Source: Octopus vulgaris
Lineage: Eukaryota
NCBI GenBank assembly: GCA_951406725.2
Contig: OX597831.1
Location: 36,828,001 to 36,892,000 of the forward strand
DNA: 64,000 nucleotides
Direction: 5' to 3'
Under the pieces are notes generated by a model. It ran no database searches. It had not been told where the DNA came from and saw only the letters and a program-made list of their open reading frames with translations. Position 1 is the first letter of the stretch, and each line of letters opens with the position of its first letter. The translations under genes were made by a program, and so were the position numbers. Shown piece by piece: positions 806-45,346 of the stretch.

Positions 806-1195
806 GGCGCAGGAGTGGCTGTGTGGTAAGTAGCTTGCTAACCAACCACATGGTTCCGGGTTCAGTCCCACTGCGTTGTATCTTGGGCAAGTGTCTTCTG
901 CTATAGCCTCAGGCTGACCAAAGCCTTGTGAGTGGATTTGGCAGACGGAAACTGAAAGAAGCCTGTCGTATATATGTATATGTGTGTATATGTTTTTGTG
1001 TCTGCGTTTGTTCCTCTAGCATTGCTTGACAACCGATGCTGGTGTGTTTACGTCTTTGTCACCTAGAGGTTTGGCAAAAGAGACTGATAGAATAAGTACT
1101 GGGCTTACAAAAAATAAGTCCCGGGGTCGATTTGCTTGACTAAAGGCGGTGCTTTAGCATGGCCGCAGTCAAATGACTGAAACAAGTAAAAGAAA
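806..1195 (+). mobile_element. tRNA-derived SINE, family A, full length
   Basis: Head GGCGCAGGAGTGGCTGTGTGGTAAG (Pol III A-box-like) and GGTTCAGTCCC (B-box-like), internal TA/TG tract, 3' part ending CAAATGACTGAAACAAGTAAAAG. The same sequence recurs at ~47955, 54336, 60656 and 63909. Confidence 0.9.
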
Positions 1196-1257
1196 AAGAT
1201 ATACATACATACATACATATATATATATATGCATATATATATGTGTGTGTGTGTGTG

Positions 1258-1440
1258 TGTATGAATATGAAAATGGAACAAAAATGCAATAGAGGGCATT
1301 AAAACGTTTGGAGTTAGATGATACAAAGGTGGACATGAGAAACAACAATTAGAAGGACAGGCAAAAAAGATGGGTCATTCGTGGGTTTCTTTCCCCAGTC
1401 AAGTTCCAGAAGTCATGACCATTTTGGGCAGTTACACTTG
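1258..1440 (-). mobile_element. ~180-bp dispersed repeat, possible PLE 3'-end family
   Basis: Homologous to 18897-19065 (-) and 44400-44570 (+). The 3' end abuts TA/TG dinucleotide runs in each copy. Confidence 0.6.
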
Positions 1441-1546
1441 AGATGTTTCGATCATCATCAAAGCATTATATTGCTTTGTAAGAAAGCTAGTGAATGTGTA
1501 CAGCAACAAAGACAAAAAAAAAAACAAAAAAAACAAACAAACGAAA

Positions 1547-1547
<1 letters not shown>

Positions 1548-1605
<58 letters not shown>

Positions 1606-1608
1606 AAC

Positions 1609-1687
<79 letters not shown>

Positions 1688-1700
1688 CAGATAGACAGAC

Positions 1701-1772
<72 letters not shown>
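1548..1772. repeat. (GATA)n/(GACA)n microsatellite
   Basis: Direct reading. Confidence 0.95.
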
Positions 1773-2181
1773 GTAATCTAAATAAGACAAAGATTTTAAT
1801 GCATATTTAATGACCTGTTACAATTGTTTCTGGATAAACTCTACTTGCAATGCCAGTTTACTCAAAAGTTCCAAGTGAAAATTTACATAATATTTGTAGA
1901 TTTAAACATTAAAGTAGCACTTCTTCAGACCGGCATCAAAGGTATGCTCTTACACTGTGTATCTTCCAGCATTGTACTTTGCTTATATCAAGAAGAAACA
2001 AAAAGTAAACAAAAATAAAAATTTTGCCGGAATGAATTTCAGAAGACATTGGGATTTTGTTATAAAATTTTACACTGTTGTTTGGATTTTATAATGTTAA
2101 AGAAGTAAACTACTAAATGATAGTACATACCAACAATCTAGCTAGTCATAATAAAATAGTAAATAAACACATATGAATATA

Positions 2182-2888
2182 GGTGAAGGAGTGGCTGTGT
2201 GGTAAGTAGCTTGCTTATAGACTCGGACCAACCAAAGCCTTGTGAGTGGATTTGGTAAACGGAAACTGAAAGAAGCCTGTTGTATATATATATATGTGAG
2301 TGTGTGTGTGTGTGGGGGGTGTGTGTGTGTGTGTGGGGGTGTATTTATATATGTATATGTTTGTGTGTGTGTGTTGTGCCCCGCCCCCCAACATAGCTTG
2401 ACATCAATGCTGGTGTGATTACGTGCCTGCAACTTAGCGGTTAGGCATAAGAGACCGATAGAATAAGCACTAGGCTTACAAAGAATAACTCTTAGTGGAG
2501 GCACATGGACTAGTGGTTAGAGCAGCGGACTTGCGGTCGAGGGATCATGGGTTCGAATCTCAGACCAGGCGATGTGTGTGTTTATGAGCAAAACACCTAA
2601 GCTCCACGCGGCTCTAGCAGAAGGTAATGTTGAACTTCTGCTGACTCTTTTGCCATAACTCTCTCTCACTCTTTCCTCCTACCTCTTGCAGTTCACCTGC
2701 GACGGACTGGCGTCCCATTCAGGTGGGGAGCCTATACACCAAAGAAACCGGGAAACCGGCCCTTATGAGCCAGGCATGGCTTGAGAAGGAACAAACAAGA
2801 AAGAATCACTCTTGGGGGTTGATTTGCTCGACTAAAGGCAGTCCTCCAGCATGACTGCAGTCAAAATGATTGAAATGAATAAAAGAAT
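2182..2888 (+). mobile_element. SINE family A copy interrupted by a nested SINE
   Basis: Family A sequence runs to ~2493 and resumes at ~2800 (GGGGTTGATTTGCTCGACTAAAGGC). Confidence 0.85.
2494..2799 (+). mobile_element. tRNA-derived SINE, family C, nested, with target-site duplication
   Basis: Head GGAGGCACATGGACTAGTGGTTAGAGCAGCGGACT...GGTTCGAATC. Flanked by AAAGAATAACTCTT (2480-2493) and AAAGAATCACTCTT (2800-2813). Related copies at 19578-19871 and 20865-21062 (-). Confidence 0.85.
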
Positions 2889-3194
2889 AGAACTAGTTTT
2901 AAAACATTGAATGGATATGGGGATCAGCCAGAATAAAATAGTAAATAAAGAGATCCATAGATAAAAAAAAAATTGTTGAATATCCTTGATACAGATAGAT
3001 TGAAAGGCAGAAAAACTGTCTTCAAATGGCTGTAATATAAATGGAGTACTGTACCATGCTCCTCTTGGAATCTCTCTCCCCCATTGGCTTGATACAACTT
3101 TAATTTCATGCTGTAAGTTTCTGCTAATAACATCAATGCTGTTGAGTGGACTTTGCATTCTATTACGATGTGCAAATCTTTAAAATATAACATC

Positions 3195-3410
3195 TAATAA
3201 TCTTTTCTGCTGTAGACACAAGGTCTGAAATTGCTGTAGAGGGGACTAATCGATTAGATTAGTGTTTTACTGGTACTTAATTTATCGACCATGAAATGGG
3301 GAAAGGCAAACTCGACCTTGGCAGAATTTGAACTCAGAACGTTGTGATGGGAAAAAATACTGCTAAGCATTTCCTCCAGCATGCTAACGATTCTGTCAGC
3401 TCACCACCTT
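3195..3410 (-). mobile_element. SINE family B
   Basis: Reverse complement matches the recurring GGTGAGCTGGCAGAA...GTTCTGAGTTCAAATTC...GGTCGA unit at 16933, 56027, 58483 and 59215. Confidence 0.8.
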
Positions 3411-3439
3411 ATATATAACTATAACATGTAATAATGTCA

Positions 3440-4255
3440 GGAGTTCAGCAGAACCTACCTCTTTAGAGCCTTATGAACACATTTCAACCATCTCTGCTAC
3501 TGCAACACAATGCAAGGTAGGTTCTTAACATTTATTTCCAGGACCTCAATGTAGCTGGCAGAGTTAACTCTAAAGGCTTGTTGAAAGAAGTAAGGAGGCA
3601 TCACATGTCCTTCATTGCTGACAGCCCCTAAAACCATGACAGTTGCAGGACATTTTGTATGCATAACACTTGAAACATCAGAAGGGTCTGTACATAACCA
3701 TCTGTCATTTCTTCTGTTAACTTTTTGACCTTGGTTGAAGTTTTTCTTGTTTGAGAAAAGACAAATCAAATCTTCTGCTGGATTTTTCAGTTCTTTTAAG
3801 AACCTTTTAGTGATTTTCTTTTGCTTTTTTCTGACAAATTGACCTTTCCTTGACAACATTTCTGACTGTTCCTTCTGACACATGGAGATCATTTGCAATT
3901 GACCTCATAGACTTTTAGGGATTGTAATCAATGATCTGTTGAACTTGCTGGATAAATTCCGGTGTTCTGATGATTTCAGAGCATTTAGAATGCATTTTAT
4001 TGTTTGATACTGGTGATATATTTCCTTCTTTATTCTCTAAGCTCCTTACAAACTTTGTAGATGAAAGATCTGGCAACTTTTAAAAACTGAGATATTTCTA
4101 AATCTCTATGCTCGACCTTTACAACCACAATAACAGCATGCCTCTTCATTTCTTGAATAACCTGAGACCCTGCCATTATTATTTTCTGAAACAAAGATTA
4201 TACAGAGTTAGCAAAAAATGTAGCAATGACGCAAATTATGTATGTCCTCAAATAC
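3440..4255 (-). mobile_element. Degenerate Tc1/mariner-superfamily transposon (transposase pseudogene)
   Basis: Minus-strand translation from the ATG at 4176 gives MAGSQVIQEMKRHAVIV...LEISQFLKVARSFIYKV (HTH-like N-terminus). The ORF track gives NRRNDRWL...HTKCPATVMVLGAVSNEGHVMPPYFF...YIEVLE, typical of a Tc1/mariner catalytic region. Stops and frameshifts are present. Confidence 0.8.
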
Positions 4256-4360
4256 CTTACACAACCTGTATATATAGTTGAAATTTACAGAAAAAACTAA
4301 AGATGAAGACAGGAGTATGAACAACAAACAGGTGTATTACTCTGACACTCGGAAGAGGGA

Positions 4361-4650
4361 TAAAGCATGACTCAATGTTTAGAACATCGGGCTCGCAATC
4401 ATGAGGTCGTGAGTTCAATTCCTGAACTGGGCTGTGCATTGTATTTTTGAGCAAGGCGCTATTTCACATTGCATCACTTCACGCAGCTGTAGAAAAAAGC
4501 TGAGATGTCATTGGTGCCAAGTTTTATTGGCCTTTGCCTTTCTCTTGGATGATATCAATGGTGTGGAAAGGGGAGTCTCGTATGCAAGGACGACTGCTAG
4601 TCTTCCATAAGGGGAGGGGAACTTTCTAGGTATAATCCCATGGTCATTTA
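4361..4650 (+). mobile_element. tRNA-derived SINE, family E, diverged
   Basis: GGTCGTGAGTTCAATTCC B-box-like motif followed by a TTGAGCAAGGC core; similar to 6500-6818 (-), 15300-15740 and 38553-38690. Confidence 0.6.
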
Positions 4651-5938
4651 CTCTTTTTTTTAAAACATGTAGCCAAATGGTTAGAACACTAGCTTCATGC
4701 TCATTTTTGAACTCACTGACACACTGTATGTATCCTTGAGCAAGGCACTTCATTGCCTGTTGCCCCAGTCTCTACTAGTTACATATCAAGTACAACCCTC
4801 TCTAATTAAGGCTATTAAATCTTGGATGTTCTGCCAGGTCAAGGATAATGAGCTTGAGGATGTCGTTATTTGCTCTCTAATACACACCGACTCTAAAACA
4901 ATTAACAACAGTATGGAACATATGTTTACAATGCTATCCTCATTACTGAGTGATGGCCATACTTTTAAGATGTATTGTGAGATAAATGCCTTGGTTAATG
5001 AATAGATGGATTGATGGTATGGTGATTGACAGAGACAGAGATTGAGGGCTGTTTAAGTAGAGACACAGAAGATATTTATGCATCTCTGTGTTTATAAATG
5101 TCTGTGTGTTCATATATCTATGTGTGAATATATATATCTGTGTCTGAATATATATATATATATGTATGTATATATGTATGTATGTATATATGTGTGTGTC
5201 TATATGCATGTGTGCATGTATTTGCGAGTAGTGAGATAGATGTTTAGGGAGATAGGCAGCAGTTTGATGGAGATAAAATGTTGGTTTGATATATATGGAC
5301 AAGGGGATTAAGTAGACAGGAAGATAGAAATCTCATAGGAAATAGATGGATATCTGTTTAAATAGAAAGGTAGAAATTAATACAGGTATAGACAAACCCT
5401 TAGAGAAAAATAATAATAAAATATAAAGAGAGAGAGAGAGAGAGCAAGAGAGAGAGAGATAGAGTAGGATATGGAGAAAGAATGAAAGTAGAATGGATAG
5501 AGAGATATGAAGTTGATAATATGAATAGAGAAGGAAGTTGCTTTGTTCTTATTTAACCACAGGTCAGCCTGTCTTAACAGACCGATGACCTAAAGGATTC
5601 TAGAGGTGACCAGTGTGTCTCTTTGTATATCTACTTCTTACAATGCTAAATATTTTGTTTGTTTATAAATATTTTTTGTAGGACGTAAGAGTGCAGATTT
5701 AAAAGAGAGAGATTTGACTGTTGTATCTAGCATGCGGCATGAGTGCACGTAAGGGCTACTTTTTTGGGTTGAAGAACAGGTGCATGTAGCATTGTTGTGT
5801 TAATGCCCACTTTTTCCATGCTTACAATGGTCAGATGGAAATCATTGTCTGCAGATGGAAGACTTTGCTGTCAGCAACACTTAGCTGTTTTCCTTGTAAA
5901 TTCATATTTCCTCCTGGTCAGACATGGGATCAGTACAG

Positions 5939-6012
5939 ATTGGAAATGAAGGGTATTACTTGTATGATGATGATGATGCTCACAACTGTCGCCTGATATC
6001 AAGGCAGATAGG

Positions 6013-6043
<31 letters not shown>

Positions 6044-6164
6044 ACATGCTCATATTGGAAATGAAGGGTATTACTTGTATGATGATGATGATGCTCACAA
6101 CTGTCGCCTGATATCAAGGCAGATAGGCACACACACACACACACACAAACACACACATGCTCAT
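5939..6164. repeat. Tandem duplication, ~115-bp unit x2
   Basis: TGGAAATGAAGGGTATTACTTG...CACATGCTCAT starts at 5941 and again at 6056. Confidence 0.9.
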
Positions 6165-6330
6165 ATCTGTGTATGTGTGTATATAAGTATGTATCTGTGT
6201 ATGTATGTATCTGTACATATATATATGTATCTGTTATATATATATATATATGTATGTGTGTGTATATATATATATCTGTGTATGTATGTATGTATGAATA
6301 TAGATATATATGTGCTTACACATATATTAT

Positions 6331-6500
6331 CATTGTTGTCGTCATCGTTTGACATCTGCTTTCCATACTGGCATTGGTTGGATGGTTTCACTGAGGACTG
6401 GCAAACCAGAAGGCTGCACTAGGCTCCAATCTGATCTGGCAAGAGTGCTACACCTGGATGCCCTTCCTAACACTAACCACTCAAAGAGTGTAGCAGGAGC
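6331..6500 (-). mobile_element. RTE-LINE-related 3' end (family D)
   Basis: Contains CTGGATGCCCTTCCTAAC, shared with the RTE 3' end at 29253-29633. Confidence 0.7.
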
Positions 6501-6818
6501 ACTCCATCGGTTATGACAACGAGGCTCCCAGCTGATACAATCAACAGAACAGCCTGCTCATGAAATTAACATGCAAGTGGCTGAGCACTCCACAGGCACT
6601 GATACTCTTAATGTAGTTCTCAAGGAGATTCAGTGTGACACGGAGCGTGACAAGGCTGGCTATTTGAAATACAAGTACAACTCATTTTTGCCAGCTTAGT
6701 GGACTGGAGCAATGTAAAACAAAGTGTCTCGCTCAAGGACACAACGTGTCACTGGAAATTGAACTCACGACCTTACAATCGCAAGCCGAATGCCCCTAAC
6801 CACTAAGCCACATGCCAT
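6500..6818 (-). mobile_element. tRNA-derived SINE, family E, near full length
   Basis: Reverse complement: TGGCTTAGTGGTTAGGGGCATTCGGC...GGTCGTGAGTTCAATTTCC...GTGTCCTTGAGCGAGACAC. Confidence 0.8.
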
Positions 6819-6832
6819 TACTGTGTAGTTTA

Positions 6833-6894
<62 letters not shown>

Positions 6895-6895
<1 letters not shown>

Positions 6896-7530
6896 AAAAA
6901 TAGTAAAAAGTGAAAAAACTACAGAAGGCTTAAAGGTTAAAAAATATATATATTTGCGTCAATATGTCTGAAGAATATTAAAAAATTTTTTTTCCTTTAT
7001 AATGACATAGTTTAGAAGAAAGACCGGTTTCGCGTTTAGCTTTTCAAATTTCTTATGTTTATGTTTAAAAGAGTTCTAAATAAGGGGAGGTAATGAGTGA
7101 TTTCTTCCGGTGTAAGGGAGATCATCGCTTAAAATTTCTTTCTTTTCCCTTGGTGTGAATTTCTCTGTATCAGTATGTTGGCATAGTTAAGTCTGGGCTT
7201 GTACTTTTCAATGAAAAATGTTTCCTTTTTTAGTCTAATTTGTGTTGATGATCCGATAGCACATTGGTAAAATGGAAAGATTGAAATTGTGGTAGTAGTT
7301 GCTTTGCGCATTTCTCAATGTGCTCACTAAAAGGTATCATTCTGTATTTTGGGAATGCAATCTGTTGTCGATGCAGTGTGCATCTACGTCTGAGTGATAG
7401 TCCCGTGGATCCCACGTAGTCTTGGTGGCAGCCCGAGCATTTTATGACATAAATTATGTTTTCAGAGTTAGATTTGATCTTGAATTTCTGTTCCTCTTTA
7501 AAGAGAAATTCTGATCCTTCTAGCAGGTTT
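6895..7530 (-). mobile_element. Inverted copy of the PLE 3' end (GIY-YIG C-terminal part plus 3' UTR; inverted pseudo-LTR)
   Basis: Reverse complement aligns by eye to 14197-14877. ORFs 7230..7415 and 7129..7311 nearly match the C-terminal part of 14132..14509 and the start of 14428..14721. It has a 12-bp deletion (TTTACTTGTGCC) and a ~33-bp deletion relative to the + copy. Confidence 0.95.
7016..7054 (-). ncRNA. Minimal type I hammerhead ribozyme, U3-A8 core variant
   Basis: Minus strand: AAGAAA-U-UUGAAAA-GC-UAAAC-GC-GAAAC-CG-GUC-UUUCUU. Stem I is AAGAAA/UUUCUU, stem II GC/GC, stem III the palindrome ACCGGU, and the cleavage triplet is GUC. Confidence 0.7.
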
Positions 7531-10500
7531 ACCCAAAAATCTTTCGAAAGTTTTCACCGAAAATTTTACCCAAAAATCTTTTGAAAGTTTTCACCGAAAA
7601 TTTTACCCAAAAATTTTTCGAAAATTTTCACCAAATATTATCACCAAAAACTTTTCGAAAATTTTCATGGAAAACTTTCCCCAAATTTTTTTCGAAAATT
7701 TTCACCGAAAATTTTCCCCGAAAATTTTCCCCAAAAATTTTTCGAAAATTTTAAACAAATTTTTCAAAAATTTTTCAAAAATTTTCATCGAAAATTTTCC
7801 AAAAAAAGTTTTTTGAAAATTTTCACCGAAAATTTTACCCAAAAATTTTTCGAAAATTTTCACCGAAAATTTTACCCAAAAATTTTCAAAAATTTTCACG
7901 AAAATTTTACCCAAAAATTTTTCGAAATTTTCACCAAACATTTTCACCAAAAACTTTTCCAAAATTTTCATGGAAGACTTTCCCCAAAAACTTTTCCAAA
8001 ATTTTCACTGAAAAGTTTACCCAAAAATTTTTCCAAAAATTTTCACCGAAAATTTTCCTAAAAATTTTTTGAAAATTTTTGCCGAAGATTCTCCCCAATT
8101 TTTGGAAAATTTACCGAAAATTTTCACCGAAAATTTTCCCCAAAAGTTTTCCCGAAAATTTTCCCCAAAGATTTTTCGAAAATTTTCACCGAAAATTTGA
8201 ACCAAAAATTTTACGAAAATTTTCCCCAAAAACTTTTCGAAAACTTTTCCCAAGATTGTCAAAAATTTTCATTGAAAATTTTACCCAAAAATTTTTCGAA
8301 AATTTTCCGCAAAAGTTTTTCGAAAATTTTACACAAAAATTGTTCGATGACTTTCACTGAAAATTTTACAAAAAAAATTTTCCGAAAATTCCCATTAAAA
8401 GTTTTCTCCAAAAACTCATAGGAAATTTTCACGGAAAACATTCCCCAAAAATTTTGCAAGGTTTTCACCAAAAATTTTTCGAAAACTTTCAACGAAAATT
8501 TTCCAAAATTTTCACTGAAAATTTTACCCGAAAACTTTTCGAAAATTTTCCCCAAAAATTTTTCCAAAATTTTCATCAAAAATTTTCCCCAAAAGTTTTT
8601 CGTAAATTTTCACCGAAAATTTTACCCAAAAATTTTTCCAAAATTTTCACCAAAAATTTTTCGAAAATTTTACACAAAAATTCTTCGATGACTTTCACTG
8701 AAAATTTTACAAAAAAAATTTTCCGAAAATTCTCCAAAAACTTTTCGAAAACTTTCACGGAAATTTTCAAAAAGTTTTCACAGAAAATTTTCACCAAAAA
8801 TTTTTTCGTAAACTTTACCCAAAAATCTTTCGAAAGTTTTCACCGAAAATTTTACCCAAAAATTTTACGAAAATTTTCACCAAATATTATCACCAAAAAC
8901 TTTTCGAAAATTTTCATGGAAAACTTTCCCCAAAAATTTTTCGAAAATTTTCACCGAAAATTTTCCCCACTTTTTTCCCGAAAATTTTCCCCAAAAATTT
9001 TCCAAAATTTTCACCGAAAATTTTACCCGAAAACTTTTCGAAAAGTTTCCGCAAAAAGTTTTCGAAAATTTTAAACAAAAATTTTTCAAAAATTTTCGCC
9101 GATAATTTTCCCCGAAAATTTTCCCCAAAAATTTTTCCAAAATTTTCATCGAAAATTTTCCCAAAATTTTTCCAAAATTTTCATCGAAAATTTTCCCCAA
9201 AAGATTTTTGAAAATTTTCACCGAAAATTTTACCCAAAAATTTTTCGAAAATTTTCACTGAAAATTTTCCCAAAAACTTTTCGAATATTTTCACCAAAAA
9301 TTTTTCGAAAACTTTACCCAAAAATCTTTCGAAAGTTTTCACCGAAAATTTTACCCAAAAATTTTTCGAAAATTTTCAACGAAAATTTTCCAAAATTTTC
9401 ACTGAAAATTTTACCCGAAAACTTTTCGAAAATTTTCCCCAAAAATTTTTCCAAAATTTTCATCAAAAATTTTCCCCAAAAGTTTTTCGAAAATTTTCAC
9501 CGAAAATTTTACCCAAAAATTTTTCCAAAATTTTCACCAAAAATTTTTCGAAAATTTTACACAAAAATTCTTCGATGACTTTCACTGAAAATTTTACAAA
9601 AAAATTTTCCGAAAATTCTCCAAAAACTTTTCGAAAATTTTCACGGAAAACATTCCCCAAAAATTTTCAAAAGTTTTCACAGAAAATTTTCACCAAAAAT
9701 TTTTTCGTAAATATTTCACCAAAAATCTTTCGAAAATTTTCACCGAAAATTTTACCCAAAAAATTTTACGAAAATTTTCACCGAAAATTTTGAACCAAAA
9801 ATTTTCCCGAAAATTTTCCCCAAAATTTTTCGAAAATTTTCCCAAGATTGTCAAAAATTTTCATTGAAAATTTTACCCAAAAATTTTTCGAAAATTTTCC
9901 GCAAAAGTTTTCGAAAATTTTACACAAAAATTGTTCGATGACTTTCACTGAAAATTTTACAAAAAAAATTTTCCGAAAATTTTCCCATTAAAAGTTTTCT
10001 CCAAAATTTTCAGGAAATTTTCACGGAAAATTTTCCCCAAAAATTTTGCAAAATTTTCACAATTTTCCCCAAAAATTTTTCGAAAATTTTCAACGAAAAT
10101 TTTCCAAAATTTTCACTGAAAATTTTACCCGAAAATTTTCGAAAATTTTCCCAGAAAATTTTTCCAAAATTTTCATCAAAAATTTTCCCCAAAATTTTTC
10201 GTAAATTTTCACCGAAAATTTTACCCAAAAATTTTTCCAAAATTTTCACCAAAAATTTTTCGAAAATTTTACACAAAAATTCTTCGATGACTTTCACTGA
10301 AAATTTTACAAAAAAAATTTTCCGAAAATTCTCCAAAAACTTTTCGAAAATTTTCACGGAAATTTTCAAAAGTTTTCACAGAAAATTTTCACCAAAAATT
10401 TTTCGAAAACTTTACCCAAAAATCTTTCGAAAGTTTTCACCGAAAATTTTACCCAAAAATTTTACGAAAATTTTCACCAAATATTATCACCAAAAACTTT

Positions 10501-12610
10501 TCGAAAATTTTCATGGAAAACTTTCCCCAAAAATTTTTCGAAAATTTTCACCGAAAATTTTTTTCCCAAAATTTTTTTCCCGAAAATTTTCCCCAAAAAT
10601 TTTCCAAAGTTTTCACCGAAAATTTTACCCGAAAACTTTTCGAAAAGTTTCCGCAAAAAGTTTCCGAAAATTTTAAACAAAAATTTTTCAAAAAAATTTT
10701 CGCCGATAATTTTCCCCGAAAATTTTCCCCAAAAATTTTTCCAAAATTTTCATCGAAAATTTTCCCCAAAATTTTTCCAAAATTTTCATCGAAAATTTTA
10801 CCCAAAAATTTTTGAAAATTTTCACCGAAAATTTTACCACAAAAATTTTTCGAAAATTTTCACTGAAAATTTTCCCAAAAAACTTTTCGAAATTTTCACC
10901 AAAAATTTTTCGAAAACTTTACCCAAAATCTTTCGAAAGTTTTCACCGAAAATTTTACTCCAAAAATTTTTCGAAAATTTTCAACGAAAATTTTCCAAAA
11001 TTTTCACTGAAAATTTTACCCGAAAACTTTTGAAAATTTCCTTTCCAAAAATTTTTCCAAAATTTTCATCAAAAATTTTCCCCAAAAAGTTTTTCGAAAA
11101 TTTTCACCGAAAATTTTACCCAAAAATTTTCCGAAAATTTTCACCAAAAATTTTTCGAAAATTTTACACAAAAATTCTTCGATGACTTTCACTGAAAATT
11201 TTACAAAAAAATTTTCCGAAAATTCTCCAAAAACTTTTCGAAAATTTTCACGGAAAACATTCAAAAATTTTCAAAAGTTTTCACAGAAAATTTTCACCAA
11301 AAATTTTTTCGTAAACTTTACCCAAAAATTTTCAAAGTTTTCACCGAAAATTTTACCCAAAAATTTTACGAAAATTTTCACCTAATATTATCACCAAAAA
11401 CTTTTCGAAAATTTTCATGGAAAATTTTCCCCAAAAATTTTGAAAATTTTCACCCGAAAATTTTCCCCAAAATTTTCAAAATTTTCCCGAAAATTTTACC
11501 GAAAATTTTCAAAATCCGAAAATTTTACCCAAAAATTTTTCGAAAATTTTCCCCGAGCTCTTTTGATTTTAAAAAGATTTTCGAATATTTTCACCGAAAA
11601 TTTTACCCAAAAATTTTTCAAAATTTTCCCGAAAATTTTCCAAAAATATTCATGAAAAAAAATTTAGGTGGCTTTGCTGCTTTCTGTGTATAAAGCGTGA
11701 ATTCTGGTTAGTTTATAGTCAAGATTTTCACGATACAATTTATTTACCTTGATACATTTTCAACTTTATTCGCATATTCGTTATATTTTTCGAAAATTTT
11801 CACCAAAATTTCCCAAAATTTTATTTTCACCGAAAATTTTACCCGAAAATTTCACGAAAATTTTCCCAAAAATTTTTCCAAAATTTTCACCGAAAATTTT
11901 CCCCAAAAAGAAAATTTTTTTTCGAAAATTTTCACCAATTTTACCCAAAAATTTGTCGAAAATTTTCCGCAAAAATTTTTCGAAAATTTTAACAAAAATT
12001 CTTCGATGACTTTCACTGAAAATTTTACAAAAAAATTTTCCGAAAATTCTCCAAAAACTTTTTCGAAAATTTTCACGGAAATTTTCAAAAGTTTTCACAG
12101 AAAATTTTCACCAAAAATTTTTCGAAAACTTTACCCAAAAATCTTTCGAAAGTTTTCACCGAAAATTTTACCCAAAAATTTTACGAAAATTTTCACCAAA
12201 TATTATCACCAAAAACTTTTCGAAAATTTTCATGGAAAACTTTCCCCAAAAACTTTTTCGAAAATTTTCACCGATAATTTTACCCAAAAATTGGTCGAAA
12301 ATTTTCCCCGAGCTAAAAATAGATGTTATGGCTGAAAATAGATTTTTAGGTGGCTGTTGCTGCTGCTTTCTGTCTATAGAGTGAATTCTGGTTTAGTATT
12401 ACAGTCAAGATGCCTCACCATCCCCGATACACCAGATTCTGCTTTACACTTAACTATGACGATATCGACTTTAACGGTTCCAAAATCACAATTATGGCTT
12501 TCTCCAAAAACTTTTCGAAAATTTTCAAGGGAAACTTTCCTCAAAAATTTTCCAAAGTTTTCACCGAAAATTTTCCGCGAAAATTTTCACAAAAATATTC
12601 GAAAAATCAC
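7528..12610. repeat. ~5 kb phased A4T4 satellite with ~1.6 kb higher-order repeat
   Basis: AAAATTTT blocks separated by 2-5 mostly C/CG bases. Marker TTCGATGACTTTCACTG occurs at 8343, 8684, 9571, 9934, 10283, 11178 and 12002 (three-step offsets 1591, 1599, 1607). Confidence 0.95.
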
Positions 12611-14083
12611 AAGGCCAGCGGTGCCAAAATCACAAAGTATGGAAGGCCAGCTGTGCCAAAATCAAAAAGTACGGAAGGCCAGCTGTGCCAAAATCAAAAG
12701 TATGGAAGGCCAGCGGTACCAAAATCAAAAAGTATGGAAGACCAGCGGTGCCAAAATCAAAAAGTATGGAAGGCCAGCGGTGCCAAAATCAAAAAGTATG
12801 GAAGGCCAGCGGTGCCAAAAATCAAAAAGTATGGAAGGCCAGCGGTGCCAAAATCAAAAAGATTTTCGAAAATTTTCCTAACAAACTTTAAATGCAAACC
12901 TAGCCTTTTCTATGGTCTGCCAAAAATTCATAAAAGCCAAATTATAAATGAAACCATTAAAAAATCACCAAAGACATACATACACACACCTAATCCGGGG
13001 GACCTAAAACTACGACCCATTGTAGCTGGCCCAACCTGTGAAACACACAGACTAAGTCTATTTATGGACATCCTCCTGAATCCCTTCCTTAAACATATCG
13101 AGAGCCATATCAGAGATGACTTAGATATGTTAAACCACCTCCCAAAAAAAGCCAAGGAAGAAACAATCCTGGTTTCATTTGATGTAGTTAACTTATATAC
13201 CAGTATACCTCATAATTATGGACTAGAGGCAATACAGTTCTGGCTGGACCAATTTCCGGAAGAAATTCCAAAAAGGATCAGTAAAGAATTCATTACTAAA
13301 TCAATTGAATTCATCCTACATAATAACCACTTCATGTCTGACAATACATTTTACCGTCAAAAATCCGGAATTGCTATGGGTACAAGGGCAGCACCAGTCA
13401 TTGTGAAACTAACAATGGGCTACATGGAAATAATCATTTACCAGGAATCTTTATCAATCTTTGGAAACCCCCTTTCTCAATACATAAAAGAGGATTGGAA
13501 ACGATTCTTAGACGATTGTTTTATACTCTGGAATGAAAACACAGATAAACTCCTAAAATTTAAAAACCTATTGAACAGCATAAACCCAAATATACAGTTC
13601 ACAATGGAATACAACCAAAAGGAGCTCACGTTCTTGGATATACTAATTAAAAAAGTTAACCTTAAAATAGAAACAGACATTTTTTACAAAGCCACAGACG
13701 CCAAACAATACCTTCTTTTTAATTCATGCCACCCAAGACACACTAAAACAAACATCCCCTTCAACCTTGCAAGAAGGATATGCACAATAGTGTCAGAACA
13801 AAATACCAGGAACTTGAGACTGCAAGAACTCAAAAACACCCTAATTGACAGACATTACCCAGCTCAACTCATAGAGGATGGGATCAGACGTGCAACAGAA
13901 ATCAACATAGAAACTTTAGGAAAAGTTCAACACAACAACACACCTTCCCCGAAAATACTACCTTACATATCTACATACAACCCCAGAAACAAAGAAGCCT
14001 TCACCATCATCACCCAGAATTTACCAATACTTCATAAGGACCCCAAATTAAAGGAAATTCTAAACATACACCAAATCATTTAA
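12410..14083 (+). CDS. Penelope-like element reverse transcriptase. RT homology starts at ~12880; the N-terminal ~155 aa are repeat-derived; the ORF ends at a premature stop.
   Basis: Motifs FYGLPKIHK, LRPIV, LVSFDVVNLYTSIP, YRQKSGIAMGTRAAP, WKRFLDDCF, IQFTME, FLDI and the thumb motif FNSCHP are characteristic of PLE RTs. Confidence 0.85.
   Translation: MPHHPRYTRFCFTLNYDDIDFNGSKITIMAFSKNFSKIFKGNFPQKFSKVFTENFPRKFSQKYSKNHKASGAKITKYGRPAVPKSKSTEGQLCQNQKYGRPAVPKSKSMEDQRCQNQKVWKASGAKIKKYGRPAVPKIKKYGRPAVPKSKRFSKIFLTNFKCKPSLFYGLPKIHKSQIINETIKKSPKTYIHTPNPGDLKLRPIVAGPTCETHRLSLFMDILLNPFLKHIESHIRDDLDMLNHLPKKAKEETILVSFDVVNLYTSIPHNYGLEAIQFWLDQFPEEIPKRISKEFITKSIEFILHNNHFMSDNTFYRQKSGIAMGTRAAPVIVKLTMGYMEIIIYQESLSIFGNPLSQYIKEDWKRFLDDCFILWNENTDKLLKFKNLLNSINPNIQFTMEYNQKELTFLDILIKKVNLKIETDIFYKATDAKQYLLFNSCHPRHTKTNIPFNLARRICTIVSEQNTRNLRLQELKNTLIDRHYPAQLIEDGIRRATEINIETLGKVQHNNTPSPKILPYISTYNPRNKEAFTIITQNLPILHKDPKLKEILNIHQII
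12611..12861 (+). repeat. 32-bp minisatellite, ~7.8 copies
   Basis: AAGGCCAGCGGTGCCAAAATCAAAAAGTATGG starting at 12611, 12643, 12675, 12706, 12738, 12770, 12802 and 12835; no spacers. Confidence 0.95.
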
Positions 14084-14553
14084 AGCTACAAACAACCTAA
14101 ATCACTTAAAAAGATTCTCACAAAGGCAAAATTGTTTTCTGAAATTACGGATGCAAAAGTAAAAAAATATGGTAGATCGACCTGTGCAACATGTCCAAAC
14201 CTGCTAGAAGGATCAGAATTTCTCTTTAAAGAGGGACAGAAATTTAAGATCAAATCTAACTTTACTTGTGCCTCTGAAAACATAATTTATGTCATAAAAT
14301 GCTCGGGCTGCCACCAAGACTACGTGGGATCCACGGGACTATCACTCAGATGTAGATGCACACTGCATCGACAACAGATTGCATTCCCAGAATACAGAAT
14401 GATACCTTTTAGTGAGCACATTGAGAAATGCGCAAAGCAACTACTACCACAATTTCAATCTTTCCATTTTACCAATGTGCTATCGGATCATCAACACAAA
14501 TTAGACTAAACAAGGAAACATTCTTCATTGAAAAGTACAAGCCAAGACTTAAC
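14084..14553 (+). pseudogene. PLE zinc-finger-like linker and GIY-YIG endonuclease, disabled
   Basis: In frame with the RT after TAA 14081-14083: SYKQPKSLKKIL...FTCASENIIYVIKCSGCHQDYVGST...LHRQQI. A frameshift near 14456 shifts to IFPFYQ...KETFFIEKYKPRLN. Confidence 0.88.
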
Positions 14554-14719
14554 CATGCCAACATACTGATACAGAGAAATTCACACCAAGGAAAAGAAAA
14601 AAAATTTAAGCGATTATCTCCCTTATACCTGGAAGAAATCACTCATTACCTCCCCTTATTTAGAACTCTTTTAAACATAAACATAACGATAACTCTATTC
14701 AACATAAACATAACGTCGT

Positions 14720-14757
14720 AAGAAATTTGAAAAGCTAAACGCGAAACTGGCTTTCTT
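14720..14757 (+). ncRNA. Hammerhead motif of the PLE 3' UTR, U3-A8 variant, cleavage site damaged
   Basis: AAGAAA-T-TTGAAAA-GC-TAAAC-GC-GAAAC-TGG-C-TTTCTT. Same as 7016-7054 except that GAAACCGGTC has become GAAACTGGC. Confidence 0.6.
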
Positions 14758-14995
14758 CTAAATTATGTCATTATAAAGGAAAAAAATTTTTTTAATATTC
14801 TTCAGACATATTGACGGAAATATATATATTTTTTAACCTTTAAGCCTTCTGTAGTTTTTTCACTTTTTACTATTTTCTATATATTCAACAACGTGCTTTC
14901 ACAAACGAACTTTCTTATCTAATTTTTATATATATATATATATATATCTATATATATATATAGGTGTGATGGTGTGATATGTGTGATCGTGTCTC

Positions 14996-15055
<60 letters not shown>

Positions 15056-15089
15056 GAATAGGGTGTTGGTTACAAAGTAAAAAAAAACC

Positions 15090-15262
15090 ACCACACTTTG
15101 TTAAGTGTTTGGTGTTAGGAAGGGCATCCAGCCATAGACAGAAAGCCAAATCGGATGAGAACCGAATGTGGCTGTCCAGCTGGTTAGCACCTGTCAAATC
15201 ATCCAACCCATACCAGTATGGAAAACAGACATTAAATAATGATGATGATGATGATGATGATG
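15090..15262 (+). mobile_element. RTE-related 3' end (family D) with (GAT)n tail
   Basis: GTTAGGAAGGGCATCCAGC...ACAGACATTAAA followed by (GAT)n. Confidence 0.7.
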
Positions 15263-15299
15263 TCTATAATTAAATAGGTGTGATAGTGTGTACATTAGA

Positions 15300-15740
15300 C
15301 ATTAGGGTCTCCTGCTCATGGTTGTAAGGGCTTGATTTCGATACACAGCAGCACATTGTCTCCTTGAACAAGACACTTTATTTCACATCGCTCCAGTTCA
15401 GTCAGCTGACAATACTGAGCAATCCTGGAATGGACTGGCATCCCATCCAGGTGAGTAGCATATACATCATGAATCCAGGGGAAACTGGCCTTTATGAGTC
15501 GGTATGATCCGATAAGGTAACTTTAATTTCAGTTCACTCTGCTGGCAAAAATGATGTGACCCCGTATTTTAAAAGGGCCTACATTGTCACATTCTGTGCC
15601 ATGCTGAACCTCCATAAGAACTATACTAAAGGTACAAATATCTGTGGAATGCTCAGCTAGTTGGCCATTAATTTCACAAGCAGGTGGTTCCATCGATCGG
15701 ATCTGCTGGAACACTCCCATTGTAACCAACGGAACACCAG
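15300..15740 (+). mobile_element. Diverged family E SINE pieces
   Basis: TGTCTCCTTGAACAAGACACTTTATTTCAC and GCTGGCAAAAATGA...TTAATTTCACAAGCAGG match the 6500-6818 element. Confidence 0.55.
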
Positions 15741-16460
15741 TTTATGATTAAATAGCTGCAGAGAAAGAAATAGATGATGAGTGGCTTCATCATAAACCTG
15801 AATTAATATGGACATTTCTAGTTCTTTGGGTTCCATATACAGGAATGAAGTTTGTTTGCATACTTCATATGAAGGGTTGGTAACGATATTCCTGGCAGAT
15901 CCTCTGAGTACTGGCACTATGTATAATACCAATTAATATTATCGGCAAGTTTCAATATTTAAACTGGCAGGTTCTACCATTTATATTATATCTCACATGC
16001 AATGTGTGTGTGTGTTTGTGTTGAGGGATTTGAATATATGCATATATGTAGATGCACAGGTATAGAAATAGATATGCTTGTGTATGTGTGTGTGTGTGTG
16101 TGTGTATGTGTGTGTATGTGTGTGCATGTGTTTGCACTTCTGTAATATATATGTGTGTGAGTGTGTACATCTTGTGTGGGTGTTTATATGATTAAGCAGA
16201 TTTATGGCTGTGCTTCTGTGTGTATGAGTGAGAAAGAGTGTGTATGTATATATATATATATATATATATATGTAGACAGAGAGAAAGAGAGAGAGAGATA
16301 CACATACACACATTAAGACTTGTATATAGTTTTGTATCTCTCTATATCAATGTATACAATTAAAGATTCAAACTCATGTTTGTATAATATGCAGGTATTT
16401 GAACATGCATATAAGCTCATGCATTTACACATAAGACACATACACACATGTATGCATATT

Positions 16461-34769: not shown

Positions 34770-36685
34770 ATTAAAGAAAGCCAAAATGAAATAAAATGAA
34801 ATATAAATAAAAATAAAAAAAGAAAATTGGTTAATATTTGCGCTGAGGAATCTGGCAGTGTTCACAAAAATAAATGAAGGAATAAATAAATAGAAATAAA
34901 TATTAATGTCTGTGAAAGAGATTTCTTTCTTCTTTTAGTTTGGTTTCATGTTTTTGCAATATCTATGATCGTGGTCAACGTATGAGCCAACGAGAGTTAT
35001 TCTATAAGACATTGCATTGAGTTGTTGCTTGACTTGTTAGAAACAGCAGAAATATTCAGAAATATTCAGAAATCTTCAGAAATATTCATGGTACAGGCAT
35101 GGTTATAGGTGATGTGTGGTTAAGAAGTTTGATTCCTAACATATTGGGTAAGAAGTCTCTTCCACTATAGCCCCAAATTGACCAATGACTTGTGAATGGA
35201 TTTCTTAAACTGAAAGTGAAAGTAGCCCCCTCCACCTCACACACATATAGGCATGGCTGTGTGGTTAGGCAGCTTGCTTCCCAGTCACATGGTTTCGGGT
35301 TCGATCCCACAGTATGGCATCTTGGGCATGTGTCTTCTGCTATAGCCTCAGGCCAAACAAAGCCTTGTGAGTGGATTTCTTAAGCTGAAAGTGGAAGTAG
35401 CCCCTCCACCTCACACACATATAGGCATGGCTGTGTGGTTAGGCAGCTTGCTTCCCAGTCACATGGTTTCGGGTTCGATCCCACAGTATGGCATCTTGGG
35501 CATGTGTCTTCTGCTATAGCCTCAGGCCAAACAAAGCCTTGTGAGTGGATTTCTTAAGCTGAAAGTGGAAGTAGCCCCTCCACCTCACACACATATAGGC
35601 ATGGCTGTGTGGTTAGGCAGCTTGCTTCCCAGTCACATGGTTTCGGGTTTGATCCCACTGTATGGCATCTTGGGCATGTGTTTTCTGCTATAGCCTCAGG
35701 CCAAACAAAGCTTTGTGAGTGGATTTGGTAGGTGGGAAATTCTATCGTGTGTGTACATTTGTGTGTAAGTGCTTGTGCCTACTAACAGAGAGGAAGGAAT
35801 ACATCACAGTATCACAGTATCTACCAGACTATCATATGCTGTTATACATCATTGGTCACAATGCGCTTCAAATTCTGTCTTGATTGCACCATTCTTTTCC
35901 ATCTTGACCAAAATTGCTTAACTAAATCAACTTTCCACTGTCGTGGAGGCCTTCTAAATGGCTTTTTCTGATCTCTTGGCTCAGTAACTGCATGGGCCCA
36001 CCTTTTGCCTGTGAAGCTTTTGATATATCTGGCCCTTTGGATCTCATAGATGCATGTATGCATGTGATTGTGTGTTTGTGTCTCCTAGTTTTGACTCAGT
36101 GCAACAATTGAAGACAAATGTCATCTTTATACAAGGAGATTGTTTACAATCTTCCATAAAAACATGTCTGGTAATAGAAAATTTGCTCCATCAAATTCTG
36201 TCTGACCTATGCAAGCATGCATCAGATGTGAATGTTAAAACGATGACGATGTTTGATGCATTCAGCATGAAAAAACTAGCAACAATTCTTTTTTTTTACT
36301 AAGGGCCACAAACATCTATGTGTAGTCTCAGAATAGGGATTTTTTAATGCAAGAAAGACTGGGAGTTGCCCATACATACAAGTCTGTCTCTCTCTACTCC
36401 ATCAATGTTGCCCAATGGAAAAGCCAGTTCTGGGGTTGATATATGTCTTATAGAATAACTCTCGTTGGCTCATACGTTGACCATCATCATAAATATTGCA
36501 AAAACATGAGACCAAAATAAAAGAAGAAAGACATCTCTTTCACAGACATTAATATTTATTTCTATTTATTTATTTATTCCTTCATTTATTTTTGTGAACA
36601 CTGCCAGATTCCTCAACTCAAATATTAACCAATTTTTAAAATTTTTATTTTTATTTCATTTTATTTCATTTTGGCTTTCTTTAAT
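34770..36685. repeat. ~240-bp inverted duplication (34770-35011 and 36443-36685)
   Basis: GAGGAATCTGGCAGTGTTCACAAAAATAAATGAAGG...GGTCAACGTATGAGCCAACGAGAGTTATTCTATAAGAC recurs as its reverse complement. Confidence 0.9.
35190..35725 (+). repeat. 174-bp tandem triplication containing a family A SINE head
   Basis: GCATGGCTGTGTGGTTAGG at 35251, 35425 and 35599; the copies are nearly identical. Confidence 0.95.
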
Positions 36686-37689: not shown

Positions 37690-38960
37690 GCTGGTAAGAA
37701 ATTGACTAGTGACAAATTGACCAACATAGAACTATTGGGGAATAAATTGACTATGGATTATCTAGTGAAGAAATGACTGACAATGATTATCTAAGCACAG
37801 ATTATCTGGTGAGTAATTGATTGAGAATGGATATCTGACAATGAATTATCTGAAAACCAATAAATTATCTGGTACCAAATTGACCCAAAATTGTTTGACT
37901 GATACCAAATTATGATATGACAAATTGACAAAACAATTTTGGTTATCTGGTGACAAAATGAACAAAATGTATCTGACAATGGTTTCACTGATAACAAATT
38001 ATCAACCATTTAACTGACCATAAACTGTGTGGTGATGGATTGTCTGGCAACCAATCAACTGACAGCGAATGATCCGGCTGTAAATTATCTTGTAATGAAC
38101 TGAATGACAATAAATAATTTGGTAAACAATTGACAAACAACAAATCATCTGGTGAGGAATTGAGTGACAATGACTTACCTGGTGAGGAATTGACTGACAA
38201 TGACTTATGTGGTGAGGGATTGAGTGACAATGACTTATGTGGTGAGGGATTGAGTGACAATGACTTATCTGGTGAGGAATTGTGTGAAAATGACTTATCT
38301 GGTAAGGAATTGAGTGACAATGACTTATCTGGTGAGGAACTGACTAATGAATTTTCTGGTGATGAGTTGACCAATGACAGATTATCCAGTAATGAAATCA
38401 GCAACAAGTTATCTGGTAACAATGTGACTGACTACAGATGCTTTTGCCAAGGACTGACCAGTCATAAGTCATCAGGTCATGAATTGAAAGATAACAAATT
38501 ATCTGATGCCAAACTGAGCAACAACGAATTATTGGAGATGAACTGACCAACTGCATGGCCTAGTGGTTAAGATGTTGCACTCACCAGTGCAAGATTGTAG
38601 TACAATTCCCGGACTGGGTAATGTGATGTATTCTCAAGCAAAACATTTTGTTTTATGCCATTCCACTCCACTTGGCTGAAAATGATTACTCCTGGTGAAG
38701 AATTGAGTGACAATGACTTATCTGATGAGAAATTGAGTGACAATGACTTATCTGATAAGGAATTGAGTGACAATGGCTTATCTGGTGAGGAATTGAGTGA
38801 CAATGACTTATCTGGTGAAGAACTGAGTGACAATGTTGTGATCTCAATATCGAAGCTGCATAACTGACCCTATAAGTCCAAGGACTTAAGAAAGTTATGC
38901 CCAGGGTTGTTGAATAATAATAAATTGACTAATGACAAATTATCTGGTGATGAAGTGCTC
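37690..38960 (+). repeat. 30-bp minisatellite (GGTGAGGAATTGAGTGACAATGACTTATCT) with degenerate flanks, split by a SINE head at ~38553-38690
   Basis: Homogeneous cores at 38151-38350 and 38693-38835; translates as GEELSDNDLS repeats. Confidence 0.9.
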
Positions 38961-44570: not shown

Positions 44571-45077
44571 CAAAGAACTGAGGTATTTCGGATTTCAAGA
44601 TAGTGTGTGAGAGAAAATTGTGATGTCACAGGAGAGAAATGAGTCCACATGGATGATGGCGCACTTACTTTTAATGATTCCAAAAAGAAAGAGTCTTGGA
44701 GAAGCCATTATGAAAGACTACTGAATGTGGAGAATGAATGGGAGGAGGAGAGCCTGCCGAATGTTAACCCAGTAGAGGGACCAGTTATCTGAATAGAAAG
44801 CTCTCTAGTTGATAAATCAATTAAGGGTATGAAGCCATGCAAAGCCCCCAGCCCTTCAGGAATCACTACTGAGATTGTGTGGGCTATGGCCTTGTTACCC
44901 ACATTGTAAAGCAAGTATTTCATGATGGAGTCATACCCAATGACTGGCGTAGCAGCACCATAGTCAACTGCTACATGGGTAAAGGTGATGCTCTAGATAG
45001 TAATAACTACAGGGGTATCAAACTGCTGGATCAGGTGATGAAGATCACAGAGAGGGTCATAGCCTATCTCATTAGGG
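44571..45077 (+). pseudogene. RTE-clade LINE ORF fragment (region leading into the RT)
   Basis: Translations WRSHYERLLNVENEW, IKGMKPCKAPSPSGIT, IPNDWRSSTIVNCYMGKGDALDSNNYRGIKLLDQVMKITERVI (the NYRGIxLL motif of LINE RTs); internal stops. Confidence 0.85.
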
Positions 45078-45205
45078 ATGATGATGATGATGATGAGCAT
45101 GATGGTGATGATGATGATGATGATGTTGAAGATAAGGATTATGATGATGACAAAGATGATGATGATAATGACGATGATAATGATGATGAAGATGATGATG
45201 ACGAA

Positions 45206-45253
<48 letters not shown>

Positions 45254-45346
45254 GATGATAATGATTATGATGATGTCGAAGATGATGATGATGACGAAGA
45301 TGATGATGATGATGATGATGATGATAATGATTATGATGATGACGAA

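What the first reader, a model, noticed from the sequence alone, without database searches (positions are those of the whole stretch)
6895..14926. Penelope retroelement and its inverted tail enclose a 5-kb satellite: possible RT-driven capture or synthesis of tandem DNA
Seen: the order is [PLE 3' end, minus strand, 6895-7530] - [A4T4 satellite, ~5 kb] - [32-bp minisatellite] - [short A4T4 unit] - [PLE RT-EN-3' UTR, plus strand]. Both outer ends face (TA)n/(GA)n runs. Both inner PLE ends join repeat DNA with no unique spacer, and the left junction shares a TTT microhomology (GGTTT|ACCCAAAA). Established: PLEs often carry an inverted partial copy of their 3' end at the 5' side, and PLE RTs are the closest retroelement relatives of telomerase RT. 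Inference: kilobases of tandem repeat sitting exactly at the inversion point is not the usual structure. It could reflect template jumping onto a satellite transcript during one insertion, iterative telomerase-like repeat addition by the RT, or later expansion. If so, this PLE would be dispersing satellite DNA.
Basis: partly seen in the sequence, partly recalled or inferred. Interest (0 to 1): 0.8.

Follow-up and report, generated by a model that had tools for sequence, protein, structure and literature searches.

The report
Satellite trapped inside inverted Penelope insertion
A dead Penelope-type jumping gene, probably in an octopus genome, has 5 kb of repeat DNA lodged between its two back-to-back halves; the repeat was likely copied in from elsewhere in the genome as the element inserted and likely lengthened later, making it an unusual single case of a known kind of DNA capture rather than telomerase-like synthesis.

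Summary
The layout is real. Two 5'-truncated pieces of one Penelope-like element (PLE) point outward into (TA)n runs and enclose 5.35 kb of repeats. They behave as one insertion: 2.5% substitutions apart, sharing alleles rare in the family, with the PLE-typical tail on one arm only and inverted identity ending at the PLE 3' end. The middle is not a pure satellite. It is a composite (A4T4 array with 0.7/0.9/1.6-kb duplications, two copies of a non-repeat insert, 32-bp minisatellite) whose parts are multi-copy in four laid public runs, where other PLE copies continue into normal ORF at the right junction. Telomerase-like synthesis is rejected: no template in the retained PLE, and the array is hierarchical. 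Most likely both cut strands primed cDNA and the truncated ends were bridged, through 3-5-nt microhomologies, by a captured piece of an existing repeat that later expanded. PLE capture of host DNA is published; I found no report of a satellite at the inverted junction. No listed contig spans either PLE-repeat junction, a noisy patch (11420-11950) weakens the array's length, and dispersal by PLEs rests on one locus.

The parts
6839..6895 (.). (TA)16(GA)12 run at the left outer end; likely target microsatellite
6897..7530 (-). Inverted, 5'-truncated PLE arm (EN C-terminal half plus 3' UTR), without the tail; 12-bp and 35-bp gaps relative to the right arm
   Evidence: tblastn of P0001, E 4e-34
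7528..7530 (.). TTT overlap at the left PLE-array junction
7528..12311 (+). A4T4 (quasi-palindromic A-tract/T-tract) array, 12-13-bp subunits, period 37, with segmental duplications at offsets of about 0.7, 0.9 and 1.6 kb
11420..11950 (.). Noisy patch: few recurring 25-mers, many indels; possible poorly polished assembly stretch
11660..11790 (+). Degraded copy of the non-repeat insert (110 matches in 167 columns; 36 of 39 gap columns are losses in this copy)
12312..12497 (+). Non-repeat insert, multi-copy in public runs, no protein or RNA family found; its end resembles the 32-bp unit
12498..12610 (+). Short A4T4 block between insert and 32-bp array; bridged by single contigs in two runs
   Evidence: table 8 records 17 and 25
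12611..12861 (+). 32-bp minisatellite, 7.8 copies, 94% matches
12862..12878 (+). Single A4T4 unit ending in the TTTC(C) overlap with the PLE
12874..14556 (+). 5'-truncated PLE ORF: RT, Cys linker, GIY-YIG-type EN; broken by a stop at 14081-14083 and a frameshift near 14452-14458
14557..14884 (+). 3' UTR, with a decayed hammerhead-like motif near 14720-14757 (read by eye; strict core absent)
14885..14926 (+). ~42-bp tail present on the right arm only
   Evidence: (38 contigs in one run end at 14884 and run into (AT)n)
14927..14962 (.). (TA)18 run at the right outer end; likely target microsatellite

Best explanation
Two 5'-truncated arms of a Penelope-like retroelement face outward into (TA)n runs and enclose 5.35 kb of composite repeat, likely from one insertion in which both cut target strands primed reverse transcription and the two unfinished cDNA ends were likely bridged by a copied piece of a repeat that already existed elsewhere in the genome. 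Steps: (1) EN cuts a (TA)n target on both strands (inferred; shown in vitro for another PLE). (2) One strand starts at the tail end (14926), the other about 42 nt inside (near 14884); the asymmetry is shown, the two start sites are inferred. (3) Synthesis stops at 12874 on one arm and 14197 on the other (shown). (4) The ends are joined through a stretch of the A4T4/insert/32-mer repeat using 3-nt and 4-5-nt overlaps (overlaps shown; RT template jump onto an RNA versus DNA-templated repair is not resolved). (5) Local duplication or homogenisation then lengthened the array (inferred from lower divergence inside it; assembly error may add). The copy is dead and the locus most likely has no function.
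For: One event: arms differ by 16 of 632 columns. Of the 10 family-variant rows shown within the arm interval (40 of 189 rows shown in all), both arms carry the window allele at 14221, where 99.5-100% of depth in 4 of 4 runs reads otherwise, at 14456 (88-100% otherwise) and at 14838 (79-95% otherwise); 14407 is shared but uninformative; the other 6 are private to the right arm (14592 re-read by eye beside an indel). Both arms carry the same frameshift near 14452-14458. Inverted identity stops at the PLE 3' end; flanking repeats match only 69-77%. One-sided tail, inverted truncated arm and (TA)n bias are published PLE traits (PMC8557442, passages); both strands are cut and extended and two RT start sites define the tail (PMC11167929, parts 1-2 of 4). 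Pre-existing donor: insert, A4T4 and 32-mer are covered at summed depths far above single contigs in 4 of 4 runs, single contigs bridge insert to 32-mer in 2 of 4 runs, and other joints show the parts rearranged. Family contigs continue into normal ORF before 12874 in 3 of 4 runs. Later growth: 21 of 35 150-bp tiles have a copy elsewhere in the array under 2.5% substitutions; pooled 34/2858 (1.2%) for 22 central tiles against 15/602 for the arms, Fisher p=0.02. Precedent: host DNA and non-coding sequence captured between PLE repeats, template jumps proposed (PMC3846280, passages and Discussion).
Against: One locus only; the host genome is not held. Overlaps of 3-5 nt are weak in A/T-run sequence. 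The age contrast is soft: the direct 1.6-kb pair gives 21/1393 (1.5%), p=0.14, only 1 of 8 tested pairs was significantly below the arms, tiles are not independent, nearest-copy choice biases low, the central range was picked after seeing the data, and gene conversion would give the same result. The shared frameshift lies in a T run and could be a systematic sequencing error. Depth shares are not copy shares. In L1, templated inserts are typically under 250 bp and local (10.1101/2024.08.27.596794, passages), so kilobase capture is unusual.
Confidence: 0.5

Rival explanations
1. 5' transduction: a truncated, defective source copy already sat downstream of the composite repeat; a read-through RNA (repeat + PLE + tail) was copied in trans without a template jump, and the second arm was joined to the repeat cDNA by the TTT overlap.
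For: The right junction looks like an ordinary microhomology 5' junction (PMC3846280). Both arms share rare alleles and a frameshift, as expected from one defective source. PLEs move sequences in trans.
Against: No repeat-to-PLE joint among the 15 of 98 joints shown and none among the 32 pieces shown; loose ends at 12874 are normal ORF. No RNA data on the repeat.
Confidence: 0.15
2. Later arrival: an ordinary inverted PLE insertion formed first; the repeat entered afterwards (mobile composite element, ectopic repair at a fragile inverted repeat), with deletions trimming both arms back to microhomologies.
For: Array duplications look younger than the arms. Microhomology-mediated deletions are common in PLE copies (PMC3846280). 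The repeat's parts are rearranged elsewhere (joints).
Against: No element termini or target duplication: both ends of the block lie inside A4T4 units. It needs a hit at or across the inversion point of a ~2.7-kb target.
Confidence: 0.14
3. Assembly artefact: two loci joined through a shared satellite, or an array whose length and inner order are wrong.
For: Deletion-rich patch at 11420-11950, homopolymer-type indels between array copies, near-identical long duplications; no holder run has half of the sampled words of 11950-12900; no junction-spanning contig listed.
Against: A chance misjoin would not pair two arms that share rare alleles and show the tail/no-tail pattern. The insert-A4T4-32-mer order is bridged by real contigs. 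This argues against a misjoin, not against a wrong array length.
Confidence: 0.1
4. Resident array: the satellite was already here between two (TA)n runs, and paired PLE insertions from one source deleted target DNA up to the array on each side.
For: (TA)n runs are dense (61 runs of 8 or more units in the window); both junctions resemble ordinary 5' junctions.
Against: Needs two outward-facing insertions, both with deletions ending inside the array and leaving no unique spacer; no A4T4 motif lies outside the arms.
Confidence: 0.08
5. Telomerase-like synthesis: the PLE RT added the repeats by copying a short template many times.
For: PLE RTs are the sister group of telomerase RTs (abstract of PMC8557442); the repeats abut both cDNA ends.
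Against: No template in the retained 2 kb of PLE. 291 parsed subunits fall into 96 types, with exact duplications up to 193 bp at kilobase offsets, two repeat types and a non-repeat insert. The same composite exists in public runs. The two arms would have had to make opposite strands of one array.
Confidence: 0.02

Closest known systems
EN+ Penelope-like elements with the CX2-5CxxC linker (Neptune/Nematis type), inverted-arm insertions (PMC8557442; PMC11167929)
   Same: RT plus C-terminal GIY-YIG-type EN with CCHH, Cys linker, inverted 5'-truncated copy, one-sided tail, (TA)n target
   Different: The inverted copy is described as immediately adjacent; here 5.35 kb of composite repeat lies between the arms. 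No direct pLTR or full ORF remains.
Host-DNA capture by Adineta vaga Penelope families Pen1_Av and Pen3a_Av (PMC3846280)
   Same: Kilobase non-PLE DNA, coding or not, enclosed by PLE terminal sequences; template jumps proposed for simple-repeat-rich inserts
   Different: There the captured DNA lies between direct pLTRs or before the 3' pLTR, with TSDs; here it lies at the inverted junction, is tandem-repetitive, and no TSD can be read in (TA)n.
L1 twin priming, chimeric and templated insertions (PMC13174262; 10.1101/2024.08.27.596794)
   Same: Two primed ends, inversion, foreign sequence taken in by template switch or repair
   Different: Different retroelement class; reported templated inserts are typically under 250 bp and local; 'satellite' does not occur in the main text of either paper.
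Non-LTR retrozymes, hammerhead-bearing satellites derived from PLE ends (10.64898/2026.07.22.740005)
   Same: A link between PLEs and tandem repeats
   Different: Retrozyme units derive from PLE termini and carry a hammerhead; this array shares no sequence with the retained PLE and has no strict hammerhead core.

Membership tests
EN+ Penelope-like element | Single ORF with RT followed by a C-terminal GIY-YIG endonuclease | tested here: met
   RVT_1 E 8e-7; 763 homologues among 2,700 candidates, many with RT and GIY-YIG domains; 75% identity over 532 aa to P0001, which hits RVT_1 and GIY-YIG, the latter below the curated cut-off. Pfam GIY-YIG did not hit the window's own EN piece. The ORF is broken and 5'-truncated.
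EN+ Penelope-like element | CCHH motif inside the GIY-YIG core | tested here: met
   CSGC...H...H aligned with five homologues
EN+ Penelope-like element | Inverted 5'-truncated copy at the 5' side | tested here: met
EN+ Penelope-like element | 30-40-bp tail at one end only | tested here: met
   ~42 bp (14885-14926) on the right arm only; 38 contigs of one run end at 14884
EN+ Penelope-like element | Inverted copy immediately adjacent, often with a palindrome at the junction | tested here: not met
   5.35 kb of repeats intervene; this is the anomaly
EN+ Penelope-like element | Direct pseudo-LTR / partial tandem | tested here: not met
   Only two PLE segments in the window; expected loss in a 5'-truncated copy
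EN+ Penelope-like element | Hammerhead ribozyme in the terminal region | tested here: inconclusive
   A decayed look-alike near 14720-14757 by eye (motif recalled); strict core absent, no Rfam match, no hammerhead fold
EN+ Penelope-like element | Target-site duplication or microsatellite target | tested here: inconclusive
   (TA)n at both ends; no duplicated unique flank
Neptune/Nematis clade | CX2-5CxxC linker upstream of GIY-YIG | tested here: met
   Present in 5 of 5 aligned homologues; the first Cys is substituted in this copy; criterion from PMC8557442
Neptune/Nematis clade | Placement in an RT tree with reference clades | not tested
   No named reference PLEs were fetched
Telomerase-like repeat addition | Short template in the element's RNA matching the added unit | tested here: not met
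   Longest shared stretch 13 and 10 nt, within the null of 60 shuffles; the lost 5' part of the element could not be tested
Telomerase-like repeat addition | Uniform short units without higher-order structure | tested here: not met
   96 subunit types, kilobase-offset duplications, two repeat types and an insert
Non-LTR retrozyme | Type I hammerhead in each tandem unit | tested here: not met
   No strict core on either strand of the array; no hammerhead among 65 weak Rfam matches
Endogenous CRESS-DNA virus fragment (considered for the insert) | Conserved nonanucleotide in a stem-loop and a Rep homologue | tested here: not met
   Two nonamer positions differ in 70-92% of depth in 4 of 4 runs; no stem-loop; no Rep among Pfam, atlas, word-index or full phmmer results

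The most novel reading that the evidence does not exclude
The repeat-plus-truncated-PLE junction is itself a mobile unit: a defective PLE lying downstream of a transcribed composite satellite is copied in trans, so PLE machinery seeds kilobase satellite and minisatellite arrays at new (TA)n sites, where they then expand. Inverted PLE junctions would be a general entry route for satellite DNA in this genome.
Probability: 0.12. Interest if true: 0.65.

Novelty: new variant of a known kind. Interest (0 to 1): 0.36.

Why it matters
How PLE inverted repeats form and how the two cDNA ends are resolved is still open (PMC8557442 and PMC11167929 both say the steps need experiment). A foreign block at the inversion point records that joining step and favours two primed ends bridged by microhomology over fold-back self-priming, at least here. 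It also offers a route by which a satellite reaches a new locus. In O. vulgaris PLEs cover 6.83% and satellites 3.12% of the genome (supplement of PMC13282606), so a genome-wide count is feasible and would say whether this is a one-off or a real dispersal route. As it stands it is one dead copy.

Tried and rejected
CRESS-virus reading of the insert: TAGTATTAC at 12394-12402, ATG at 12410 and an FTLN-like peptide (likeness recalled, not from a call). Rejected: nonamer not conserved in the family, no stem-loop (z=+1.39), no Pfam family for the 30-aa peptide or the 57-aa alternative frame, no usable atlas hit, 0 of 2,041 candidates, and 4 phmmer hits that are repetitive proteins with no Rep domain. 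Segmental inverted duplication: rejected, flanks match only 69-77%. Coding role for the array: 5 hits among 8,000 scored candidates, all low-complexity A/T-run translations. In-frame ORF 12380-14083 through the repeats into RT: not taken as meaningful, since these repeats are nearly stop-free in all three frames. Donor locus: exact-pattern scans found 0 matches in metagenome contigs, 0 in prokaryote genomes, and in viral contigs 0 and 1 isolated 20-nt match in unrelated sequence. Expression: no RNA holder listed, no evidence either way. Rfam: 65 matches at E<=1 in 6000-16000, all below gathering scores. Tail folding: no stable structure. Print: no paper held any of five sequence strings; searches for a PLE-captured satellite returned 13, 1, 1 and 0 papers, none describing such a case by title or start of abstract; the library lacks most subscription papers and Repbase/Dfam were not searchable. 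Earlier findings: 5 of 6 look-ups gave nothing relevant.
Full report
Observation. The left arm, 6897-7530 on the minus strand, matches 14197-14876 with 16 substitutions in 632 aligned columns and gaps of 12 and 35 bp. The right piece, 12874-14926, encodes RT, a Cys linker and a GIY-YIG-type endonuclease: 75% identical over 532 residues to the intact protein P0001, with 763 homologues among 2,700 candidates, the named ones mostly from molluscs including Octopus bimaculoides. The host is probably an octopus; this is inferred from those hits and the microsatellite-rich flanks, and no genome is held. The ORF is broken by a stop at 14081-14083 and a frameshift near 14452-14458. The linker motif places it with the Neptune/Nematis type by the criterion in PMC8557442 (passages; alignment); I built no tree.

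The middle block. It is a composite, not a pure satellite. The A4T4 array carries duplications at offsets near 0.7, 0.9 and 1.6 kb, with exact repeats up to 193 bp. Two homologous non-repeat inserts interrupt it (11660-11790, degraded; 12312-12497), and the end of the clean insert resembles the 32-bp unit. The motif GAAAATTTTC occurs 172 times within 7500-12900 and never in the rest of the window. Of 24 listed public runs, 14 hold part of 11950-12900, none half or more; six have shares of 0.24-0.41. I laid four of those six (three samples of organism A, one of B; contigs only) on 12300-14926. All 30 bins are covered in all four. Bins over the insert sum to depths of 848-4,976 and the bin at the A4T4/32-mer boundary to 39,000-169,000, against 11-88 for the individual contigs listed; summed depth is not a copy number, but these parts are plainly multi-copy. 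Single contigs bridge insert, short A4T4 block and the start of the 32-mer in two runs (12434-12621 with 3 differences; 12428-12620 with 4 differences and 11 gaps), and other joints show the parts in other arrangements. So the composite exists in real reads and in more than one organism label.

One insertion or two. Within the arm interval, 10 family-variant rows were shown (40 of 189 overall). Both arms carry the window allele at 14221, where 99.5-100% of depth reads otherwise in all four runs, at 14456 (88-100% otherwise) and at 14838 (79-95% otherwise); 14407 is shared but common; six are private to the right arm (14592 re-read by eye beside an indel). Both arms share the frameshift, which may however be a systematic error in a T run. 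Inverted identity ends at the PLE 3' end and the flanking repeats match only 69-77%, which rules out a larger inverted duplication. The right arm has a ~42-bp tail that the left lacks, and 38 contigs of one run end at 14884 and pass into (AT)n. An inverted truncated copy with a 30-40-bp tail at one end is the published PLE pattern (PMC8557442), and a purified PLE cuts and extends both strands and starts at two sites that bound the tail (PMC11167929, parts 1-2 of 4). One event is therefore much the likeliest. On the clock quoted for octopus TEs (distance 0.09 = 25 million years; PMC13282606, passages), 1.3% per arm would be roughly 3-4 million years, if the host is an octopus.

Junctions. Left: TTT is shared, bounded on both sides (five array copies of the same segment). 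Right: family contigs in three of four runs continue into normal ORF before 12874, so this copy is truncated there; the overlap is TTT plus C in 34 of 43 array contexts and CC in 7 of 43. Null chances are 0.087 for 3 nt or more on the left, 0.037 and 0.0135 for 4 and 5 on the right: suggestive only.

Telomerase-like synthesis. Rejected. The retained PLE shares at most 13 nt with the A4T4 array and 10 nt with the 32-mer, both inside the range of 60 shuffles; 291 parsed subunits fall into 96 types; the block has kilobase-scale structure, two repeat types and an insert, and occurs in public runs. The lost 5' part of the element could not be checked for a template.

Age of the array. 21 of 35 tiles of 150 bp have a copy elsewhere in the array under 2.5% substitutions; the 22 central tiles pool to 34/2858 (1.2%) against 15/602 for the arms, p=0.02. 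Against this: the direct 1.6-kb pair gives 21/1393, p=0.14, and only 1 of 8 chosen pairs was significantly below the arms; tiles are not independent, the range was chosen after viewing, and conversion would mimic youth. The first 750 bp differ from their nearest copies by 5-12%, so that structure is older than the insertion and came with the donor. The patch 11420-11950 is deletion-rich and poor in recurring 25-mers and may be an assembly weakness, so the 5-kb length is uncertain.

Mechanism. Shown: two truncated arms from one source, tail asymmetry, (TA)n ends, short overlaps, a multi-copy donor. Inferred: cleavage and priming on both strands, bridging of the cDNA ends by a copied piece of the repeat, later expansion. 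Unresolved: RNA template jump versus DNA-templated repair; no RNA holder was listed, which says nothing either way. Main rivals are 5' transduction from a source copy lying next to the repeat (0.15), later arrival of the repeat (0.14), assembly error (0.10), a resident array (0.08) and telomerase-like synthesis (0.02).

A side lead failed. The clean insert holds TAGTATTAC, an ATG and an FTLN-like peptide, recalling a circular ssDNA virus origin and Rep (likeness recalled). Two nonamer positions differ in 70-92% of depth in all four runs, there is no stem-loop, and no search returned a Rep. The donor repeat remains unnamed: exact scans of three collections found no usable locus, and no paper held its strings.

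Comparison with print. PMC3846280 (passages and Discussion) reports 0.9-1.5-kb host spacers, a host gene and non-coding sequences captured between PLE repeats, and proposes template jumps; it also reads palindromes at inverted junctions as self-priming, which this locus does not show. L1 work (PMC13174262 and 10.1101/2024.08.27.596794, passages) covers twin priming, chimeras and short templated inserts. The retrozyme preprint (10.64898/2026.07.22.740005, passages) links PLE ends to hammerhead-bearing satellites, which this array is not. Searches showed no report of a satellite at a PLE inverted junction (listings and abstract starts only); subscription papers and repeat libraries were outside reach, and bioRxiv supplements were not seen.

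Verdict. A real, well-formed PLE insertion with an unusual filler: a new variant of known PLE capture, one dead locus, junctions not yet confirmed by reads. Interest 0.36.

Noticed in passing
window 12312-12861: The insert and the 32-bp unit are related (19 of 22 bases near 12476-12497), suggesting the minisatellite grew out of this element's own sequence; the composite repeat is multi-copy in two organism labels and unnamed.
   Followed up: partly
window 12380-14083: A 567-codon open frame runs from the insert through both repeats into RT; probably incidental because the repeats have few stops.
   Followed up: partly
window 11420-11950: Deletion-rich stretch with a degraded insert copy; looks like a poorly polished assembly patch.
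   Followed up: partly
window 14720-14757 and 7013-7050 (minus): Decayed hammerhead-like motif in the 3' UTR of both arms, read by eye; core positions altered in both.
   Followed up: partly
window 6300-6780 and 15077-15709: Both flanks hold copies of the same two dispersed short repeats in opposite orientation, 69-77% alike, with more copies at 28.0, 29.5 and 32-33 kb; probably SINEs (name recalled).
   Followed up: partly
window 44873-45730: Frame beginning with a LINE RT-like stretch (RTE-type by recall, not searched) that runs into a long (GAT)n tract.
   Followed up: no
window 35189-35726: 174-bp tandem repeat, 3.1 copies, 97% matches.
   Followed up: no
window 38147-38835: Two arrays of a 30-bp unit (6.6 and 4.8 copies, about 90% matches).
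   Followed up: no
window 5939-6166: 115-bp direct duplication, 96% matches, 670 bp left of the insertion.
   Followed up: no
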